The translations under genes were made by a program, and so were the position numbers. 11,971 nt of DNA from a virus (taxonomy: Duplodnaviria > Heunggongvirae > Uroviricota > Caudoviricetes). Location of the stretch: IMG/VR virus record IMGVR_UViG_2778261454_000011, positions 1 through 11,971 of that record, one strand, 5' to 3'. Shown in pieces: positions 1 through 11,971 of the stretch (its first letter is position 1; each line of letters begins with the position of its first letter). The notes beneath the pieces are model-generated. The model was not told where the DNA came from, did not search any database, and saw nothing but the letters and a program-made list of their open reading frames with translations.

Positions 1-112
1 AACTGAAGTTGCCCTGAAAATGAAATTTTTTTGCACAACCGCAGAACTTTTCCGCAGGGCATCAGTCTTAATTAGTGCCACTGCTTTTCTTTGATGTCCC
101 CATTTTGTGGAG

Positions 113-155
113 CCCATCAACCCCGCCATTTCGGTTCAAGGTTGATGGGTTTTTT
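113..155 (+). terminator. Rho-independent terminator-like hairpin (CCCATCAACC ... GGTTGATGGG followed by TTTTTT)
   Basis: A 10-bp perfect inverted repeat at 113..122 and 140..149 is followed by a T6 tract at 150..155 on the + strand. It may mark the 3' end of a flanking host transcript or sRNA just outside the prophage end. Confidence 0.4.
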
Positions 156-235
156 GTTGCCTGAAATTTATGCCTTTTAAAATCATGATGTTAGAAGCAG
201 TGTTTTTTAACGATGGCGACAAATTGGCGGCAGAG

Positions 236-1262: not shown

Positions 1263-2522
1263 ATGTTTAGATTATCTAGTGTCAAGATTGAAGGTTTTTG
1301 GGGAAGACTAAATGCATCATGTTCATTTAATGAAGATGTAAATATTATTATTGGTCGAAATGGGACCGGTAAAACAACCTTTATGAATATTCTTCACTCA
1401 GTTCTGGCATTAGAACTCGAATCACTAAATGAGAATAGTTTTGATAATGTAACAATAAAAATAAAAGAAGGAAGCAAAACTAAAACAATAAAAGTTGTGA
1501 GTAAATTTGACATAACTAAAGCTTTGCCTACGTTTGAATATACAATTTCTAGAAAGAAATATATTATCAGATCCTTTGAAGATCGTAGACTACCTATATA
1601 TATGAGGAGAAAATATCAGGAAGACGTTGAAAAACTTAAGTTAGAGTTAGATAAATTAGTTGCTTTATCTTCTCTATCAGTTTACCGACTTAGAAGCGGT
1701 GAAGATTTTGAAATCAGAGACAAATATGGCTCAAAATTAATCAACCCTGTTGATTACCGATTAGAACAATTATTGCAGAACCTAACAAAATATCAACTTT
1801 ATTTATCACAAAGAGCTCGTGATGTTTCTGCAATATTACAGAAAGAGGTTCTTGCTTCTATTCTTTATAGTAAAGAAGATGGTATCGATGACACATTTAA
1901 CTTTTCTTTTGATAAAGAAAAAGAACGTAGAAATTTAATAGCTGCATATTCTCAGCTTGGAGCTTTTGATAGTGATGTCAGAAAGAAGATTAACTTTCAC
2001 GTTGAATCTATTGCCAATACATTTGAAGAATTACGACTTGCAGAAAAAAATAACAGAAATATTTTAAATGTAGATTACAGATCATTTGAGGCATTACGAA
2101 AGACGCAAAGAATTATAAAGATGTCTTTAAAATCCGAGGAGAAAATAAAAAACATATTTCTTCCTATAAATCTATTTTTAGAAACATTACATGAGTTCAT
2201 AACCGATAAAAAATTTAATTTTATCTCCGGTGAGTTAGTAATAGAAAATGAGCATGGGCCGATTAGCCATAGTAATTTATCGTCTGGTGAAAAACAGCTA
2301 TTAATTCTTTTTATTGAAACTTTGCTACAGCAAAACAAACCTTTCATCTATCTTACTGATGAACCAGAATTATCGCTACATATTGCATGGCAACGAAAAA
2401 TAATACCTGCAATCAAACAACTTAATCCTAATGCGCAAATTATCGCCGCTACGCATTCACCAGAAGTGGCTTCTAAATATCGAAATGCAATCTTTGATAT
2501 GGAGAAATTGGTTCATGGATGA
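1263..2522 (+). CDS. ariA: ABC-type / AAA_15-AAA_21 family ATPase, PARIS AriA-like
   Basis: A 419-aa ORF with an AAGGA ribosome-binding site 7 nt upstream. It carries Walker A GRNGTGKTT (K37), an ABC-signature-like LSSGEKQ, Walker B FIYLTDEPELSLH and an H-loop AATHSPE. The region is strongly AT-rich compared with the flanking phage genes. Its stop overlaps the start of the next gene (ATGGATGA). Confidence 0.7.
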   Translation: MFRLSSVKIEGFWGRLNASCSFNEDVNIIIGRNGTGKTTFMNILHSVLALELESLNENSFDNVTIKIKEGSKTKTIKVVSKFDITKALPTFEYTISRKKYIIRSFEDRRLPIYMRRKYQEDVEKLKLELDKLVALSSLSVYRLRSGEDFEIRDKYGSKLINPVDYRLEQLLQNLTKYQLYLSQRARDVSAILQKEVLASILYSKEDGIDDTFNFSFDKEKERRNLIAAYSQLGAFDSDVRKKINFHVESIANTFEELRLAEKNNRNILNVDYRSFEALRKTQRIIKMSLKSEEKIKNIFLPINLFLETLHEFITDKKFNFISGELVIENEHGPISHSNLSSGEKQLLILFIETLLQQNKPFIYLTDEPELSLHIAWQRKIIPAIKQLNPNAQIIAATHSPEVASKYRNAIFDMEKLVHG

Positions 2523-3366
2523 TTTCCATTATTCTGCCGAAGCAGAAAATGTAATGAATTTATTTTACCAAGCTGAAGCCATGGTTTATGTTGAAGGCCC
2601 AGATGATATTTGCTTTTGGGAAATCATCTTTAATAAAGCTAGTTCATTAAAGGTTGAAATCAAAGATGTTGGCGGCTGTGAAGAATTAAAAAAATATATT
2701 GATAGAGTTACTGATGAAGATCTTCAAATTATAATTGCATGTGATGCAGACTTCACTACATTTGAAAATGAGGAAAACGCTGATAGTCGTATTGTAAAAA
2801 CTTATGGGCACTCCATCGAAAACACGTTTATTGACAAAACAGGCATATATAAGGCAATAAAAACTCTCGGAAAATTACCTCAAAAGATAATGAACGATGT
2901 CAACGTCGATTCTTGGACAGAAGACTTTTATACCAAAATGGACCCCCTAATAAAACTTGATATATACAATCATATTTATAGAAAAGGCATTTCAGTTATT
3001 GGTGACAGTGCAGATCGTTTCATGAAATCTAGAAAATCAAATGAAATTTGCGAGCAAAAAATCACGAGTTACAAAAACACCATCATTGAAAAATTAGGTG
3101 TGGAATCAGATAACATCGATTCATCTTTCAAATCAAAATCGATAGAATACAGAAAGTGGCTTAGAGGTCATTTTCTATTTTCTGCAGTACATAGGTACAT
3201 TAGCACAACTGCAGAAAAAAATGGAAAAAAAGTATCCTTATCATATGAATCATTATATTCCAATTTAATGAATACATTTGAATCCAATTTTACCAATACT
3301 CATATTGAGTTTAATCATTACCACGAAAAAATTAAAGCCATAAATATGCCACACGAAATGAAATAA
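2515..3366 (+). CDS. ariB: DUF4435 / TOPRIM-like nuclease partner, PARIS AriB-like
   Basis: A 283-aa ORF starting at ATG 2515 with a GGAG 7 nt upstream, overlapping the ariA stop by 8 nt. Conserved acidic motifs VYVEGPDD (E27), IIACDADF (D-x-D) and YGHSIEN fit a TOPRIM-type catalytic core. It has the same AT-rich composition as the ATPase gene. Confidence 0.65.
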   Translation: MDDFHYSAEAENVMNLFYQAEAMVYVEGPDDICFWEIIFNKASSLKVEIKDVGGCEELKKYIDRVTDEDLQIIIACDADFTTFENEENADSRIVKTYGHSIENTFIDKTGIYKAIKTLGKLPQKIMNDVNVDSWTEDFYTKMDPLIKLDIYNHIYRKGISVIGDSADRFMKSRKSNEICEQKITSYKNTIIEKLGVESDNIDSSFKSKSIEYRKWLRGHFLFSAVHRYISTTAEKNGKKVSLSYESLYSNLMNTFESNFTNTHIEFNHYHEKIKAINMPHEMK

Positions 3367-5179: not shown

Positions 5180-6388
5180 ACACCAGGCCATCTCCCGCGC
5201 ACGGCGGTTAAGGCACAGGCCCACGTCTTTAAGCAGTACATCATCGACTTCGCCAAAGAAGTGGAGGTGGAGCTGAAAGGCGATCCGATGGTGCTTCCCA
5301 ACGGGGCCACGCTTTACTTCCTCGGCACCAATGCCCGCACGGCCCAGAGTTACCACGGCAACCTGTATCTGGATGAATATTTCTGGATACCGAAATTCCA
5401 GGAGCTGCGCAAAGTGGCTTCCGGTATGGCTATTCACAAAAAATGGCGACAAACCTATTTTTCCACGCCATCCAGCCTGACACACAGTGCTTATCCGTTC
5501 TGGTCCGGTGCGCTGTTCAACCGTGGGCGCAACAAAGCCGATAAGGTGGACATCGACCTGTCCCACAGCAATCTGGCCCCCGGCCTGCTGTGCGCAGACG
5601 GGCAATACCGCCAGATAGTCACCGTGGAAGATGCGGTGCGCGGCGGCTGTAACCTGTTCGACCTTGACCAGTTGCGCATGGAGTACAGCCCGGACGAATA
5701 CCAGAACCTGCTGATGTGCGAGTTTGTGGACGATCTCGCGTCCGTGTTCCCGCTCAGCGAGCTGCAGGCGTGCATGGTAGACAGCTGGGAAGTCTGGACT
5801 GACTTTCATGCACTGGCCCTGCGCCCGTTTGGCTGGCGCGAAGTATGGATCGGTTATGACCCGGCGAAAGGTACGCAGAATGGCGACAGCGCCGGATGCG
5901 TGGTGGTGGCACCGCCAGCCGTGCCGGGCGGCAAGTTCCGCATTCTTGAGCGTCACCAGTGGCGCGGAATGGACTTTCGCGCCCAGGCTGACGCCATCAA
6001 AAACCTGACCGAACAGTACAACGTGACCTACATCGGCATCGACTCGACAGGTGTCGGCCACGGGGTTTACGAGAACGTGAAAGCGTTTTTTCCAGCCGTC
6101 CGGGAGTTTGTCTACAACCCCAACGTTAAAAACGCCCTGGTACTCAAGGCCTACGACATTATCAGTCACCGCCGTCTGGAGTTTGACGCCGGACACACCG
6201 ACATAGCGCAGTCATTTATGGCAATCCGTCGCGCCACCACCGCCAGCGGCAACCGCCCGACCTATGAAGCCAGCCGCAGCGAAGAAGCCAGCCATGCCGA
6301 TCTGGCCTGGGCAACCATGCACGCACTGTTTAACGAACCGCTGCAGGGCGAGTCCGCCAATACCAGCAATATTGTGGAGATTTTTTGA
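5180..6388 (+). pseudogene. P: Terminase large (ATPase) subunit gpP, N-terminally truncated fragment
   Basis: The open frame begins just after a stop at 5177..5179 with no start codon. Its translation (...KAQAHVFKQYIIDFAKEVEVELKGDPMVLPNGATLYFLGTNARTAQSYHGNLYLDEYFWIPKF...) matches the central and C-terminal parts of P2-type terminase P. About 400 aa remain against roughly 590 for intact P, and the fragment abuts lysA on the opposite strand with about 20 bp between them. Confidence 0.7.
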
Positions 6389-7413
6389 TGGGAAAGAGTA
6401 AGAAAAAACGCGCTGCGGCGACGAATCAGATCCAGCATAAAAACCAAACTTCAGCCGAAGCATTCAGCTTCGGTGATCCCGTTCCTGTTCTGGACCGCCG
6501 CGAACTGCTGGACTATGTGGAATGCGTACAGATGGATCGTTGGTATGAGCCGCCTGTGAGTTTCGACGGACTGGCGCGAACCTTCCGCGCCGCCGTGCAT
6601 CACAGCTCACCGATTGCAGTGAAGTGCAACATTCTGACCAGCACCTACATCCCTCACCCGCTGCTCAGCCAGCAGGCTTTTTCGCGTTTTGTGCAGGACT
6701 ATCTGGTTTTTGGTAACGCCTACCTGGAGAAACGCACGAACCGCTTCGGTGAAGTTATCGCCCTTGAGCCTGCACTGGCAAAATACACCCGACGCGGGTT
6801 AGACCTGGATACCTACTGGTTTGTGCAATACGGTATGACAACCCAGCCGTATCAGTTCACGAAAGGCAGCATCTTTCATCTGATGGAACCCGATATCAAC
6901 CAGGAGATCTACGGCCTGCCCGGTTATCTTTCTGCCATTCCGTCAGCTCTGCTCAACGAGTCCGCCACGCTGTTCCGACGCAAATATTATATTAATGGCA
7001 GCCATGCAGGATTCATAATGTACATGACCGATGCCGCTCAGAACCAGGAGGATGTGAACAACCTCCGCAACGCGATGAAAAGCGCCAAAGGGCCAGGCAA
7101 CTTCCGCAACCTGTTTATGTACTCGCCTAACGGCAAAAAAGACGGGCTTCAGATCATCCCATTGTCAGAAGTCGCGGCGAAGGATGAGTTTTTGAATATC
7201 AAAAATGTTAGTCGCGATGACATGATGGCGGCACACCGCGTGCCGCCGCAGATGATGGGGATTATGCCTAATAATGTTGGGGGATTTGGGGATGTGGAGA
7301 AGGCAAGCAAAGTGTTTGTGCGGAATGAGTTAATGCCATTGCAAAAGAATTTTGAATCACTGAATAACTGGGCTGGAAAAGAAATTATTTCATTTAATGA
7401 CTACTGTTTTTAA
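6388..7413 (+). CDS. Q: Portal (capsid) protein gpQ
   Basis: A 341-aa ORF starting at ATG 6388 with GGAGA 8 nt upstream, overlapping the P stop (TGATG). Size and position downstream of P match P2 portal Q. Confidence 0.75.
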   Translation: MGKSKKKRAAATNQIQHKNQTSAEAFSFGDPVPVLDRRELLDYVECVQMDRWYEPPVSFDGLARTFRAAVHHSSPIAVKCNILTSTYIPHPLLSQQAFSRFVQDYLVFGNAYLEKRTNRFGEVIALEPALAKYTRRGLDLDTYWFVQYGMTTQPYQFTKGSIFHLMEPDINQEIYGLPGYLSAIPSALLNESATLFRRKYYINGSHAGFIMYMTDAAQNQEDVNNLRNAMKSAKGPGNFRNLFMYSPNGKKDGLQIIPLSEVAAKDEFLNIKNVSRDDMMAAHRVPPQMMGIMPNNVGGFGDVEKASKVFVRNELMPLQKNFESLNNWAGKEIISFNDYCF

Positions 7414-7442
7414 GAAAATGCGCATGGAAATTTTCATGCGCA
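7411..7442 (-). terminator. Rho-independent terminator hairpin downstream of the RT gene
   Basis: An 8-bp stem TGCGCATG (7419..7426) pairs with CATGCGCA (7435..7442) around an 8-nt loop. On the - strand it is followed by TTTTCTT. It lies between the convergent Q and RT genes. Confidence 0.45.
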
Positions 7443-7448
7443 CACACG

Positions 7449-8378
7449 TTATTCTGATACTTCAGGTTGATATCTCTGGATTTCATCAATCAGCTCTGAT
7501 GAATATTTCGCACAAAGCCTATTAATAAATAATGGCTCAACACTTTTGCAATACGATAAATATCCTTGAAGAAATAGCCTTTTCTTCTCATCAAGAGCCT
7601 CCCATTTAAAAATAAGCGATTTAACCATCCTTTTTTTATCTCTCCCTAAGGATACTCCACCATCTGTTGTCAAAGTCACACCCGTAACCATCATTTTATT
7701 TTTCTTTGACATATGCAGTGTCTTTTTTCTATTAATCCATAGTTTTGATGGGTATTTTAAAGTTTTTAAATTCGAGCGTAAAAAAGGTGGTATTTGCTTC
7801 AATACATTTTCTTCGTTTGTTGAGAAGTACATATCATCAGCATAGCGTGTATATGTTACACCTTTTGAAAGACAAAATTCATTCAATATATGATCTAATT
7901 CATAGCATATAGCATTGCTTACCACAGGGGAACTAACAGCACCCATAGTCAGTCTCCCGTTAAAGCATACTATTTTTACCAGCAAATCAGTATCATCCTT
8001 TGACCAATCATCACTGAAGAAATGCTTGTTGTCGTTTATAAATCTCTCAACATCACTTTTCTTAATTGAATCAAAAAAACCTTCAAAGTCCATCTTAAGC
8101 ATAAAACGTTTAGCTTTGTGAATGCTTGCATGTTTGAACACTGATGAACCCTGCTGATATGCTACAGCATTTGGATGAATCGGCAATTTCGACAGAACAT
8201 TATCATGAAGTAATCTCTGCAAAACTTTTAATTCTTTAGAGGGCTGATAGACGATTCTTGTCCCACCGCCTTTTTTAGGTACAGAAAATTTACCATAATG
8301 CGAGTTAGCATCATTTGCAACTTTTAATATAAAATCAGCTTCTAACAGTAAAACTTTAGCTAGATACTCAATTAACAT
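7449..8378 (-). CDS. Retron-type reverse transcriptase
   Basis: A 309-aa ORF with RT motifs: IVYQPSKELKVLQ (finger region), KMDFEGFFDSI (motif A), YTRYADDMYFS (Y-x-D-D catalytic motif C) and a VTG triplet (MMVTGVTL) typical of retron RTs. Its ATG lies 1 nt after the stop of the upstream ORF. Confidence 0.8.
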   Translation of the reverse strand: MLIEYLAKVLLLEADFILKVANDANSHYGKFSVPKKGGGTRIVYQPSKELKVLQRLLHDNVLSKLPIHPNAVAYQQGSSVFKHASIHKAKRFMLKMDFEGFFDSIKKSDVERFINDNKHFFSDDWSKDDTDLLVKIVCFNGRLTMGAVSSPVVSNAICYELDHILNEFCLSKGVTYTRYADDMYFSTNEENVLKQIPPFLRSNLKTLKYPSKLWINRKKTLHMSKKNKMMVTGVTLTTDGGVSLGRDKKRMVKSLIFKWEALDEKKRLFLQGYLSYCKSVEPLFINRLCAKYSSELIDEIQRYQPEVSE

Positions 8379-8379
8379 A

Positions 8380-8622
8380 TCACATGATCCTTTCTAATTC
8401 TGCTTTGAATTTAGATATCATTATTAAATCGGATAATGATCTAGCTCTACTTCGTTGAATACTTTCAACTAAATCTTTCATCTTTTCATGATTAAAAAAT
8501 TTAATATAATCGACACATGAATAATGGGTCACGCCCTCAAATCGACTTTCCTTAAAAATCCCAAGAGCAACTCCAATAGAAACAATAAATGAAATATTTT
8601 TATTAATTTTATAATTTATCAA
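8380..8622 (-). CDS. Small ORF in frame with the upstream effector ORF (possible C-terminal effector fragment with a hydrophobic segment)
   Basis: An 80-codon ORF with a TTG start. It is in the same reading frame as 8665..9432 and separated from it by 14 sense codons and a single TAA. It contains the hydrophobic stretch ISFIVSIGVALGIF. Confidence 0.35.
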   Translation of the reverse strand: MINYKINKNISFIVSIGVALGIFKESRFEGVTHYSCVDYIKFFNHEKMKDLVESIQRSRARSLSDLIMISKFKAELERIM

Positions 8623-8664
8623 CCTGCCTGTGATATTAAATATCTCAGGAATTGTTATTGTACA

Positions 8665-9432
8665 TTAAGAAGATATAAGAACGAGAACAATAAATAATAT
8701 TATTTTTGGTGATTTTTTGTAATCTCCTATTGAATTTGTATTAGTTATGTTTGATTGAACTTTCCTATTTAGCCTTTCATTTATTTTAGGCATACACGTT
8801 AAAATTGTCTCAAATTCAGTATAGATTGTAGGGCCAAATTTGGATTCACTATCAACCCATTTTACGGGCCCTGTATTGATAAATGACTTATGACTTTCAA
8901 ACTTTTTATCTAATATAGGAAGAAGTTTTTTACGTAAAACAGGACTTAATGAAAATGCGCCCAATTCAGCTACAGTGCCATAACTCTCTACGAGAATAAT
9001 TACCACATCAGAAAAATCCGCAAGCCATTCTTCAAGTGATAACGCATTCACATTACTATGAGTTCCTAAATTGCTAATTACTTCCCATGCTAATTCTGCT
9101 CGAAAAGTAACAAATTCTTTATGATGCTTAGCAATATATTTTTCCAGCACCCCTCTATTTGAACAATAAGTCTCATCTCCTCCACAAATAAATAATACTT
9201 TTGGCAGGATATAATTAAAAGAATTCAAGTTACTTGGAAAAAAACTTGAAATAAAATTTTCTTTTGCTCGTAAATATCTAGGATGTTTAAACCACATAAC
9301 AATTAATGCCCATACAAGAGTTCCCGAGACACAAGTTAGCCTGGTGTCTATAAATGACACAAGGCTAACTTGTGTCGAGATACCAAGCAATCCATACGAG
9401 TTGGCTAAACACCAACCACTAGAAAGTAACAT
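8665..9432 (-). CDS. Retron effector candidate with a nucleoside 2-deoxyribosyltransferase-like (NDT-like) domain
   Basis: A 255-aa ORF carrying ...KVLFICGGDE... and ...VVIILVESYGTVAELGAFS..., which resemble the NDT-family motifs including the D/E-x-G-T-x-x-E-L-G catalytic region. The ATG at 9432 is preceded by AGGAAAG. It ends in a hydrophobic tail (KIILFIVLVLISS) followed by TAA. The start codon is uncertain. Confidence 0.55.
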   Translation of the reverse strand: MLLSSGWCLANSYGLLGISTQVSLVSFIDTRLTCVSGTLVWALIVMWFKHPRYLRAKENFISSFFPSNLNSFNYILPKVLFICGGDETYCSNRGVLEKYIAKHHKEFVTFRAELAWEVISNLGTHSNVNALSLEEWLADFSDVVIILVESYGTVAELGAFSLSPVLRKKLLPILDKKFESHKSFINTGPVKWVDSESKFGPTIYTEFETILTCMPKINERLNRKVQSNITNTNSIGDYKKSPKIILFIVLVLISS

Positions 9433-9455
9433 ATTGAATGTACTTTCCTGCTAAG

Positions 9456-9700
9456 GGCACAGCTAGGCTAGCACTAACATACGGATTATTCAAGTGAATG
9501 CAGCTCAGCGCGCGCTCGTATCCCCGCCACGCCTGCCCGCTTTATGTAGTGGTTTTCATGCAGGTGCATGATCTACGCAAAAGCCCGCCAGTTCTGGCGG
9601 GCCTTAGCAAAAACGATCCTCAAACGATCATGCAATCTCATGCAGCATAGACATGCACAGACGAGTAAAGCGAATCGGACTTTACGCAAGGTGAACTCCT
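9456..9700 (-). ncRNA. Candidate retron non-coding RNA (msr-msd) region
   Basis: A non-coding stretch upstream of the effector and RT operon that is dense in nested inverted repeats: TGCATGATC / GATCATGCA arms (about 9558..9660) enclose a GCCCGCCAG-N4-CTGGCGGGC hairpin (9584..9605), and a 12-bp palindrome CAGCGCGCGCTG lies near 9506..9517. An 8-9 bp inverted pair TGCTAAGG / CCTTAGCA near 9604..9612 and 9456..9464 could be a1/a2-like flanking repeats. The boundaries are not defined. Confidence 0.35.
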
Positions 9701-11212: not shown

Positions 11213-11971
11213 ATGGTCTGTAATCCCCTTGCAACCGATCTCACATCTAAAATGTTTGCCCATTATCGAGATAAACGACTGACAGGTGAGATCTACTTCA
11301 GCGAGAAATGGAAGAAAGGGGCCAGCCCGGTCACCATTAACCTGGAGCAAAGCTATCTAAGTAGTGTTTTTAGCGAACTATCCCGCCTGGGCGAATGGTC
11401 GTATCCAAACCCACTGGAGAACATGCGAAAATTCACCATCGCAGAAAAAGAGATGGCATGGCTTACCCATGAGCAGATTGTTGAACTGCTGGATGATTGC
11501 AAACGTCAGGACCCAATTCTGGCACTGGTAGTCAAGATATGCTTAAGCACAGGCGCACGCTGGCGAGAAGCAATAAACCTTACCCGCTCACAGGTGACCA
11601 AATACCGAATTACCTTTGTCAGAACGAAGGGGAAGAAAAACAGAAGCATCCCTATCAGTAAAGAGCTTTACGAAGAGATCATGGCGCTCGATGGGTTCAA
11701 TTTCTTCACAGACTGCTATTTTCAATTTTTATCCGTGATGGAAAAAACGTCTATCGTGCTCCCTCGCGGTCAACTGACACACGTTCTGCGCCATACGTTT
11801 GCGGCGCATTTTATGATGTCGGGTGGAAATATCCTTGCTTTGCAAAAAATCCTCGGACATCACGACATAAAAATGACTATGCGTTACGCACATCTAGCAC
11901 CGGATCACCTGGAAACTGCATTACGGTTTAATCCGCTGGCAACACTACCAACATCAATAGCAAGTTTTTGA
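11213..11971 (+). CDS. int: Tyrosine recombinase / P2-type integrase, catalytic C-terminal part (N-terminus missing or frameshifted)
   Basis: The translation contains the catalytic signature of tyrosine recombinases: ...[11 protein letters not shown]... (Arg), ...[17 protein letters not shown]... (His-x-x-Arg), ...[15 protein letters not shown] (His, Tyr). It aligns with the C-terminal roughly 240 aa of P2 Int as recalled. The frame has an in-frame stop at 11144 and no arm-binding N-terminal domain. It runs to the window end at a TGA. Confidence 0.75.

What the first reader, a model, noticed from the sequence alone, without database searches (positions are those of the whole stretch)
8623..8667. 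Single in-frame TAA splits the retron effector reading frame
ORFs 8665..9432 and 8380..8622 are in the same frame. They are separated only by a TAA (8667..8665 on the - strand) and 14 sense codons. Upstream of the stop lies a hydrophobic stretch (KIILFIVLVLISS) and downstream a second one (ISFIVSIGVALGIF). Either an ancestral longer effector with a C-terminal membrane or other domain has been inactivated by a nonsense mutation, or the stop is genuine and a small downstream protein is translated separately and coupled to the RT. The two readings give opposite answers on whether the retron toxin is still active.
Basis: seen in the sequence. Interest (0 to 1): 0.55.

Follow-up and report, generated by a model that had tools for sequence, protein, structure and literature searches.

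The report
Retron toxin stop codon: likely artefact
The stop codon that splits this retron toxin gene is really in the sequence, but it lies in a 14-error patch found in only one draft assembly, so it is most likely a sequencing or assembly mistake in an ordinary intact gene.

Summary
TAA at 8667..8665 (- strand) splits one reading frame (9432..8380) upstream of the retron RT.

The two halves are one gene. The read-through product matches the retron St85/RcaT effector profile end to end. 109 of the 120 best homologues span the site. 22 of 24 genomic loci have a single effector ORF that abuts the RT. No locus has a separate small gene.

The "hydrophobic stretches" are helices of a C-terminal HTH domain shared with the solved Retron-Eco1 effector. 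They are not membrane segments.

The stop is one of 14 substitutions packed into 86 nt (8640-8725). All 14 are transversions. They are the only differences from near-identical E. coli retrons across 2.3 kb. The allele exists in one record only (NODD01000017.1).

An independent assembly of run SRR3993847 is identical over 23 kb, including private SNPs and an IS30 junction. It carries the wild-type TTA, and its contigs break inside the patch. Other draft assemblies also break there.

A transversion-only spectrum is what two-colour Illumina errors look like.

Verdict: probably an assembly artefact at a coverage gap (about 0.72). Otherwise it is a private pseudogenising lesion (about 0.22). A native split gene is refuted. 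Interest is low.

The parts
8665..8667 (-). In-frame TAA. It is codon 256 of the annotated 350-codon frame and codon 211 of the 305-aa protein counted from the conserved start. All relatives have TTA (Leu) here.
8640..8725 (.). 86-nt patch holding all 14 differences from the closest relatives. All are transversions. On the coding strand they are 9 T>A, 1 A>T, 1 G>C, 2 G>T and 1 C>A. Consequences: the stop, 7 amino-acid changes (including the family-invariant Gly of the LGP motif, G257C, and P258T) and 4 silent changes.
8665..9297 (-). Effector, N-terminal part as it stands in the window (210 codons plus stop). It starts at the family-conserved MWFKHP (Met46 of the annotated ORF, whose start is at 9432) and holds the NDT-like (nucleoside deoxyribosyltransferase-like) N-glycosidase domain.
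8380..8664 (-). Remainder of the same effector frame (94 codons plus native TGA at 8382..8380). It is most of the C-terminal HTH domain and is not a separate gene.
7449..8378 (-). Retron St85-family reverse transcriptase, intact, 309 aa. Its ATG lies 1 nt after the effector's native stop. The exact protein is seen on 92 contigs.
9291..9550 (-). Putative retron ncRNA (msr-msd). A closing helix ACUACAUAA/UUAUGUGGU (9550-9542 with 9299-9291) appears in both the MFE and centroid folds. A long 21-bp-arm hairpin lies at 9328-9376. The fold z-score is -5.2. Sequence conservation among relatives begins at about 9550. The boundaries are inferred and there is no Rfam match.

Best explanation
The locus is an ordinary type II-A (St85/Sen2-like) retron in a P2-like prophage. 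Its order is ncRNA, one effector gene, then an RT that starts 1 nt after the effector's stop. The effector is 305 aa from the conserved start: an N-terminal NDT-like N-glycosidase domain plus a C-terminal HTH domain. The TAA that splits the effector in this window is most likely not in the bacterium. It is one of 14 miscalled bases in an 86-nt, very AT-rich stretch where short-read coverage collapses. The deposited assembly bridged the gap with one or a few low-quality reads. The error spectrum contains only transversions, so every change is a flip of a single colour channel. That is what two-colour Illumina chemistry produces. Shown here: gene unity, the private and clustered nature of the changes, the wild-type allele and contig break in an independent assembly of the same strain or clone, and breaks at the same place in other drafts. 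Inferred: that the bridging reads were erroneous, and which instrument was used.
For: One gene: the read-through product matches NF038232 over 8-274/277 and NDT_II-A over 3-270/279. L001, L002, L004, L006 and L008 have an intact 1053-nt CDS with TTA. 109 of 120 homologues span the site. 22 of 24 loci have one ORF ending at the RT.

Clustering: all 14 differences from L001 over 2301 nt lie in 8640-8725 and all are transversions. The rest of the window shows about 9 differences in about 11.9 kb, 6 of them transitions. The Poisson probability of at least 14 changes in 86 nt is 3e-28.

Private allele: the exact 255-aa product (WP_157921313.1) is on one contig and in no Logan read-based assembly, whereas the RT is on 92 contigs. 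The same triple-deleted prophage occurs in 7-8 contigs. At least one (SRR31598950) is read through with an intact effector, and four further contigs were reported as similar places.

Same strain, different answer: Logan contigs SRR3993847_55 and SRR3993847_239 are identical to the NODD contig over 12,469 and 10,707 nt. They share its private SNPs and its IS30 insertion point in the nitroreductase gene. They carry the wild-type base at all 13 patch sites they cover. Their ends lie at 8722 and 8726, inside the patch.

Coverage trough: 6 of 7 'partial' homologous proteins from other drafts stop at contig ends between codons 225 and 269.

Spectrum: NextSeq two-colour data give very few A/G and C/T errors (PMC5374548).
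Against: I could not see reads, qualities or the instrument model. I could not prove that SRR3993847 is the run behind GCA_002518125.1 rather than a clonal sister isolate. Fourteen errors in 86 nt is a lot even for a poor read tail. The miscalled bases do not simply copy their neighbours, so simple phasing does not explain them (my inspection). The patch (22% GC) is not the most AT-rich 86-mer in the window, and the others assembled cleanly. Prophages in this lineage are decaying (three deletions), so a real pseudogene would not be out of character.
Confidence: 0.72

Rival explanations
1. The patch is real. A private multi-base mutation event in this isolate introduced a nonsense codon and seven missense changes. 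The effector becomes a pseudogene: it keeps the NDT-like domain and loses nearly the whole C-terminal HTH domain. The retron toxin is then dead and the RT/ncRNA are orphaned.
For: The bases are in the deposited record. The prophage is already degraded by three deletions. In Retron-Sen2, toxin-inactivating mutations arise readily, and premature stops and substitutions of D296 in the 320-aa RcaT abolish toxicity (bioRxiv 10.1101/2020.06.22.160168; PMC11701397). Loss of the last 95 residues would therefore plausibly inactivate the effector. Four silent and ten coding changes look unselected.
Against: No known in vivo process gives 14 of 14 transversions at 16% density in 86 nt while leaving 23 kb around it untouched. 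A single nonsense change would suffice. The allele is absent from every other assembly of the clone, including one identical at private markers. The patch coincides with a contig-break hot spot.
Confidence: 0.22
2. The patch is the footprint of a targeted or templated diversification process acting on the toxin gene: DGR-like mutagenic retrohoming, cDNA-mediated conversion by the retron RT, or quasi-palindrome template switching.
For: An RT is encoded 290 nt downstream. The changes are clustered and strand-biased (9 of 14 are T>A on the coding strand). Three groups of changes create perfect palindromes: AAATAATATTATTT, TGTACA and GATATTTAATATC.
Against: No second copy or template of the patch was found in 50 kb of held context. 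The substitutions are not restricted to one template base, and all A-site changes go to a single base, unlike DGR. The patch residues are invariant or nearly so in all homologues, so there is no population-level hypervariability. Palindrome gain is not significant against spectrum-matched random mutation (P 0.07-0.18).
Confidence: 0.03
3. The stop is native. The effector ends at codon 255 and a small downstream protein (80-94 aa) is translated separately, or the TAA is read through by recoding.
For: Only that the downstream frame stays open and ends right at the RT start.
Against: Every close relative has a sense codon. 109 of 120 homologues and 22 of 24 loci are single ORFs. The downstream piece has no family of its own and no exact copy in 15 billion proteins. 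It would lack the first helix of its domain. TTG 8622 has no convincing ribosome-binding site (read).
Confidence: 0.02

Closest known systems
Retron-Sen2 (St85) of Salmonella Typhimurium: msrmsd-rcaT-rrtT tripartite toxin/antitoxin
   Same: Same NCBIfam families for both proteins (NF038232 effector, NF038233 RT). Same order: ncRNA, effector, RT. [quoted passage not shown] In Sen2, truncations and C-terminal substitutions inactivate the toxin.
   Different: [quoted passage not shown] As deposited, its effector frame is interrupted. msDNA production and toxicity are untested.
Retron-Eco1 (Ec86) N-glycosidase effector (PDB 7XJG, 8QBK, 8QBL)
   Same: It is the best structural match to the AlphaFold model of the intact homologue, over the whole length (about 310 aligned columns, E 1e-10, TM 0.55-0.57). 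Both have the two-domain architecture of an NDT-like domain plus an HTH domain with five helices and a beta-hairpin (bioRxiv 10.64898/2026.07.14.738597).
   Different: Only 20-22% identity. Filament formation and NAD+ hydrolysis are shown for Eco1 and not tested here.
Defence hot spots of P2-like prophages
   Same: The retron lies between the portal gene and the replication region. A PARIS (AriA/AriB) pair lies between the V and S tail genes. That P2-like phages carry anti-phage systems at such variable loci is my own knowledge.
   Different: In this strain the prophage has lost head, tail, lysis, replication and immunity genes through three deletions while keeping both defence loci.

Membership tests
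Type II-A / St85-family retron (RcaT-like tripartite TA) | Retron-type RT of the St85 family | tested here: met
   NF038233 at 325.8 bits (cut-off 235) over 3-289/289. PADLOC RT_II-A at 349 bits.
Type II-A / St85-family retron (RcaT-like tripartite TA) | NDT-like effector of the STM3845/RcaT family encoded next to the RT | tested here: met
   NF038232 at 152 bits for the truncated ORF and 172 bits for the read-through product (cut-off 100). NDT_II-A at 175 bits. The fold matches NDT, CMP hydrolase and the Ec86 effector.
Type II-A / St85-family retron (RcaT-like tripartite TA) | Effector is one uninterrupted ORF with the C-terminal HTH domain, ending at the RT start | tested here: not met
   It is interrupted by TAA 8667..8665 in the window as deposited. 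It is met in all checked near-identical copies (L001, L002, L004, L006, L008) and in 22 of 24 distant loci. The failure is probably an artefact.
Type II-A / St85-family retron (RcaT-like tripartite TA) | msr-msd ncRNA upstream, with terminal inverted repeats and an msd hairpin | tested here: inconclusive
   The predicted structure has a closing helix and a long hairpin, with z -5.2 to -5.8. No Rfam family matched. No covariation analysis was done.
Type II-A / St85-family retron (RcaT-like tripartite TA) | msDNA synthesis; effector toxicity neutralised by RT-msDNA | not testable with these tools
   Needs experiments.
   0 of 24 loci show it. 109 of 120 homologues cover at least 95% of the full length.
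Membrane-anchored retron effector (transmembrane C-terminus) | Hydrophobic segments form membrane-spanning helices | tested here: inconclusive
   In the AlphaFold model (pLDDT about 90 in this region) the two segments are 15- and 13-residue helices (197-211 and 232-244) packed in a globular domain. That domain aligns with the Eco1 effector, which was solved within the retron filament complex. No dedicated TM predictor was available. One paper calls a homologue a 'putative inner membrane protein' (PMC11701397).
Diversity-generating retroelement-like targeted mutagenesis | Template repeat / variable repeat pair with adenine-specific substitutions | tested here: not met
   No second copy of the patch in the held context. 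Five kinds of substitution, not specific to one base. The patch is invariant across homologues.

The most novel reading that the evidence does not exclude
The 14-transversion patch is real. It records a localised, possibly RT- or error-prone-polymerase-mediated hypermutation event that knocked out a retron toxin in a single isolate. If so, retron-bearing cells could escape their own toxin through a burst of clustered mutation rather than single hits.
Probability: 0.04. Interest if true: 0.6.

Novelty: not a real feature. Interest (0 to 1): 0.1.

Why it matters
The main value is as a caution. A RefSeq protein (WP_157921313.1, 255 aa) and an apparent 'dead toxin' retron probably rest on a handful of bad base calls in an AT-rich coverage gap. 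Surveys that count pseudogenised defence systems from draft assemblies would score this locus wrongly.

The work also corrects two features of how this family has been annotated. First, the first 45 codons of the commonly annotated 350-aa ORF lie inside the retron ncRNA. Second, the hydrophobic C-terminal segments are helices of an HTH domain rather than membrane anchors.

If the stop were real, the result would be an ordinary pseudogene in a decaying prophage.

Tried and rejected
(1) Quasi-palindrome or template-switch origin. The window allele creates three perfect palindromes. Spectrum-matched random mutation of the wild type does as well in 7-18% of 20,000 trials, so I rejected this as unsupported.

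(2) Ectopic donor or gene conversion. No k-mer of 12 nt or more spanning a changed site recurs elsewhere in the window.

(3) DGR-like mutagenesis. There is no template repeat and no base specificity.

(4) AT-richness alone as the cause of the gap. The patch is 22% GC, but an 18.6% GC stretch at about 2139 assembled without trouble. Composition alone does not explain the trough.

(5) Simple phasing errors. The miscalled bases are not copies of their neighbours (inspection).

(6) Scanning one-genome-per-species contigs for either allele of the patch found nothing.

(7) Rfam has no match for the ncRNA at gathering or relaxed thresholds.

(8) The local Pfam copy lacks PF28093 (STM3845), so Pfam added nothing.

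(9) A literature search for SRR3993847 found nothing. The Carabias 2024 and Wang 2024 papers on Eco1 are not held.

(10) The Salmonella RcaT-Sen2 sequence could not be retrieved, so D296 was placed only by its distance from the C-terminus of the 320-aa protein. It was not placed by alignment.

Full report
**Observation.** On the - strand the frame 9432..8380 reads 255 sense codons, then TAA (8667..8665), then 14 sense codons, then the 80-codon ORF listed from TTG 8622. It ends in TGA at 8382..8380, 1 nt before the ATG of the next gene. The window is 100% identical to NODD01000017.1 of the E. coli draft assembly GCA_002518125.1.

**What the genes are.** The downstream gene (7449-8378) is a retron St85-family reverse transcriptase. 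It scores 326 bits against NF038233 (cut-off 235) and 349 bits against PADLOC RT_II-A.
- The 255-aa ORF matches the retron St85 effector family NF038232, but only over profile positions 8-180 of 277.
- Joining the two ORFs across the stop extends the match to 8-274 in one stretch and raises the score from 152 to 172 bits.
- PADLOC NDT_II-A likewise covers 3-270 of 279.
- The 94-codon remainder on its own matches nothing and has no exact copy among 15 billion proteins.

The two ORFs are therefore two pieces of one effector gene.

**Homologues run through the site.**
- Eight complete E. coli genomes carry this retron at 98-99.4% identity. In L001, L002, L004 and L006 the effector is an intact 1053-nt CDS with TTA (Leu) where the window has TAA.
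- Of the 120 best homologues of the wild-type protein (down to 39% identity; Yersinia, Pectobacterium, Vibrio, Shewanella and others), 109 cover at least 95% of its 305 residues. They are mostly 305-330 aa long.
- In 24 loci from species-representative genomes with enough context, 22 have one uninterrupted effector frame whose stop overlaps or abuts the RT start. The two exceptions are metagenome bins with breaks at other positions. No locus has a separate small gene.

**The start codon.** The alignment shows that the family starts at a conserved MW(F)KHPKY. That is Met46 of the annotated 350-codon ORF (window 9297). The first 45 annotated codons lie inside the predicted retron ncRNA.

**What the C-terminal part is.** I built an AlphaFold model of an 80%-identical intact homologue (P0031) with a 42-sequence alignment. 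It has mean pLDDT 86.6 and pTM 0.87.
- Residues 197-305 (pLDDT about 90) form helices 197-211, 216-227 and 232-244, a beta-hairpin at 248-261, and helices 264-268, 271-291 and 295-304.
- The best Foldseek matches, over the whole length, are the Retron-Eco1/Ec86 effector chains 8QBL_E, 7XJG_J and 8QBK_E (E about 1e-10, about 310 aligned columns).
They are too short for membrane spans and are packed in the core. The stop falls at residue 211, at the end of the first helix, so the deposited ORF would lack almost the whole HTH domain.

In Sen2, spontaneous loss-of-toxicity mutants include frameshifts, premature stops and repeated hits at D296 of the 320-aa toxin. By inference, such a truncation would inactivate the toxin.

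**The stop is not an isolated change.** Across 2301 nt (7400-9700) the window differs from L001 at 14 positions. All 14 lie within 8640-8725 (86 nt) and all are transversions. On the coding strand they are 9 T>A, 1 A>T, 1 G>C, 2 G>T and 1 C>A.
- Besides the stop, they cause K240 for Y, I245 for F, I248 for F, L252 for V, C257 for G, T258 for P and F265 for I, plus four silent changes.
- These residues are invariant or nearly so in close homologues. G257 is invariant and P258 at least 90% conserved in the 42-sequence family alignment.
- Elsewhere the window differs from its closest relatives at about 9 sites in about 11.9 kb, 6 of them transitions.
- At that background rate, 0.065 changes are expected in 86 nt. 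The probability of at least 14 is 3e-28.

**The allele is private to one assembly.** The exact 255-aa product is WP_157921313.1. It is seen on one contig only and in no read-based Logan assembly, whereas the exact RT protein is on 92 contigs.

The window's prophage is a deletion derivative of the intact P2-like prophage of strain EC21Z-063. There are three junctions, at about 934-940, 5209-5210 and 11222-11224. The fusion proteins made by these deletions mark the clone, and 7-8 contigs carry them.
- SRR31598950_26 reads straight through with an intact 350-aa effector. Across 11,162 nt it differs from the window only at the 14 patch sites and 2 SNPs.
- Two contigs of SRR3993847 are identical to the NODD contig over 12,469 and 10,707 nt. 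They share both private SNPs and the exact insertion point of an IS30 copy in the nitroreductase (nfsA-like) gene where the NODD contig ends.
- The SRR3993847 contigs carry the wild-type base at all 13 patch sites they cover. One ends at 8726 and the other starts at 8722, so the assembly breaks inside the patch.

An independent assembly of the same strain, or of an indistinguishable sister, therefore supports TTA and shows a coverage gap there.

Other drafts break at the same place. Of seven "partial" homologous proteins cut by contig ends, six stop between codons 225 and 269, at scattered positions. That pattern fits a coverage trough and does not fit a repeat boundary.

**Why the spectrum points to an artefact.** Natural E. 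coli divergence is transition-rich, as the background in this window shows. Fourteen of fourteen transversions has probability 2e-7 at the background ratio and 0.003 with no bias.

In two-colour Illumina chemistry, A gives both signals, C gives red, T gives green and G gives none. Every transversion is therefore a flip of one channel, and every transition needs both channels to flip. NextSeq data indeed show very few A/G and C/T errors (PMC5374548). All 14 changes are single-channel flips whichever strand was read.

My inference is that the assembler bridged the gap with one or a few low-quality two-colour reads. I could not check the reads or the instrument.

**Alternatives.**
- A real private lesion remains possible (about 0.22). 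The prophage is decaying and retron toxins are readily lost. In that case the effector would be a pseudogene and the RT/ncRNA orphaned.
- Template switching at quasi-palindromes, an ectopic donor and DGR-like mutagenesis were tested and found no support.
- A native split or recoding is excluded by the homologue survey.

**Comparison with known systems, and novelty.** The locus is a member of the St85/Sen2-type (PADLOC type II-A) retron family. It sits in the variable region next to the portal gene of a P2-like prophage. Its intact form occurs in several E. coli genomes and is annotated as such. Nothing about its architecture is new.

**Verdict.** The stop is probably an assembly artefact and otherwise a private pseudogenising lesion. 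Interest 0.1.

Noticed in passing
window 1263-2522 (+) and 2515-3366 (+): A PARIS-like defence pair sits between the prophage V and S tail genes: AriA (AAA ATPase, PADLOC AriA 135 bits) and AriB (DUF4435, AriB 86 bits). It is intact and identical in arrangement to strain EC21Z-063.
   Followed up: partly
window ~934-940, 5209-5210, 11222-11224: Compared with the intact P2-like prophage of EC21Z-063, the window has three deletions with 2-7 nt junction microhomology. They create a V-D fusion protein (545-1162), a truncated terminase (5261-6388) and a truncated integrase (11213-11971). Head, tail, lysis, replication and immunity genes are lost, while both defence loci are kept. The same triple deletion is in 7-8 public contigs.
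   Followed up: yes
window 9298-9432 (-): The first 45 codons of the commonly annotated 350-aa effector CDS overlap the predicted retron ncRNA, including the long msd-like hairpin at 9328-9376. The family-conserved start MWFKHP is at 9297, inside the 3' arm of the closing helix.
   Followed up: partly
window 8626-8758 (equivalent positions in other assemblies): This is a contig-break hot spot. Six of seven partial homologous proteins in other draft genomes end here at scattered positions, and so does the Logan assembly of SRR3993847. That suggests a recurrent short-read coverage trough around the A5-T7-A-T6 tract. The cause (library bias or something else) was not established.
   Followed up: partly
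L009 14888-14964 (NODD01000017.1 contig end, outside the window): An IS30 end is inserted in the nitroreductase (nfsA-like) gene about 3.7 kb beyond the window. The insertion is shared with SRR3993847 and absent from SRR31598950. From my own knowledge, nfsA disruption is a known route to nitrofurantoin resistance.
   Followed up: partly
L003 1727-2779 (E. coli A37, NZ_CP029327.1): The effector in this 'complete' genome is out of frame from about codon 169 to about codon 275 and the locus is 3 nt shorter overall. That fits about three homopolymer single-base deletions (my inference) and may be long-read errors. It is another probably artefactual 'broken' retron toxin.
   Followed up: no
NZ_CP019246.1 (45,156-bp record of strain Combat13F7), hits H8 and H54: A second copy of the P2-like phage with this retron is deposited as a 45-kb 'plasmid' alongside the chromosomal prophage. 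It may be an excised or episomal phage genome, or an assembly duplicate.
   Followed up: no
window 80-158 (+): The RybB sRNA (Rfam RF00110, 105 bits) lies immediately outside the ogr end of the prophage. The prophage sits between ybjL/rybB and rcdA.
   Followed up: partly
L032 and L036 (metagenome bins): Two distant homologous loci have an interrupted or shortened effector frame ahead of an intact RT. The breaks are at positions different from the window's stop. I did not establish whether they are real pseudogenes or bin errors.
   Followed up: no
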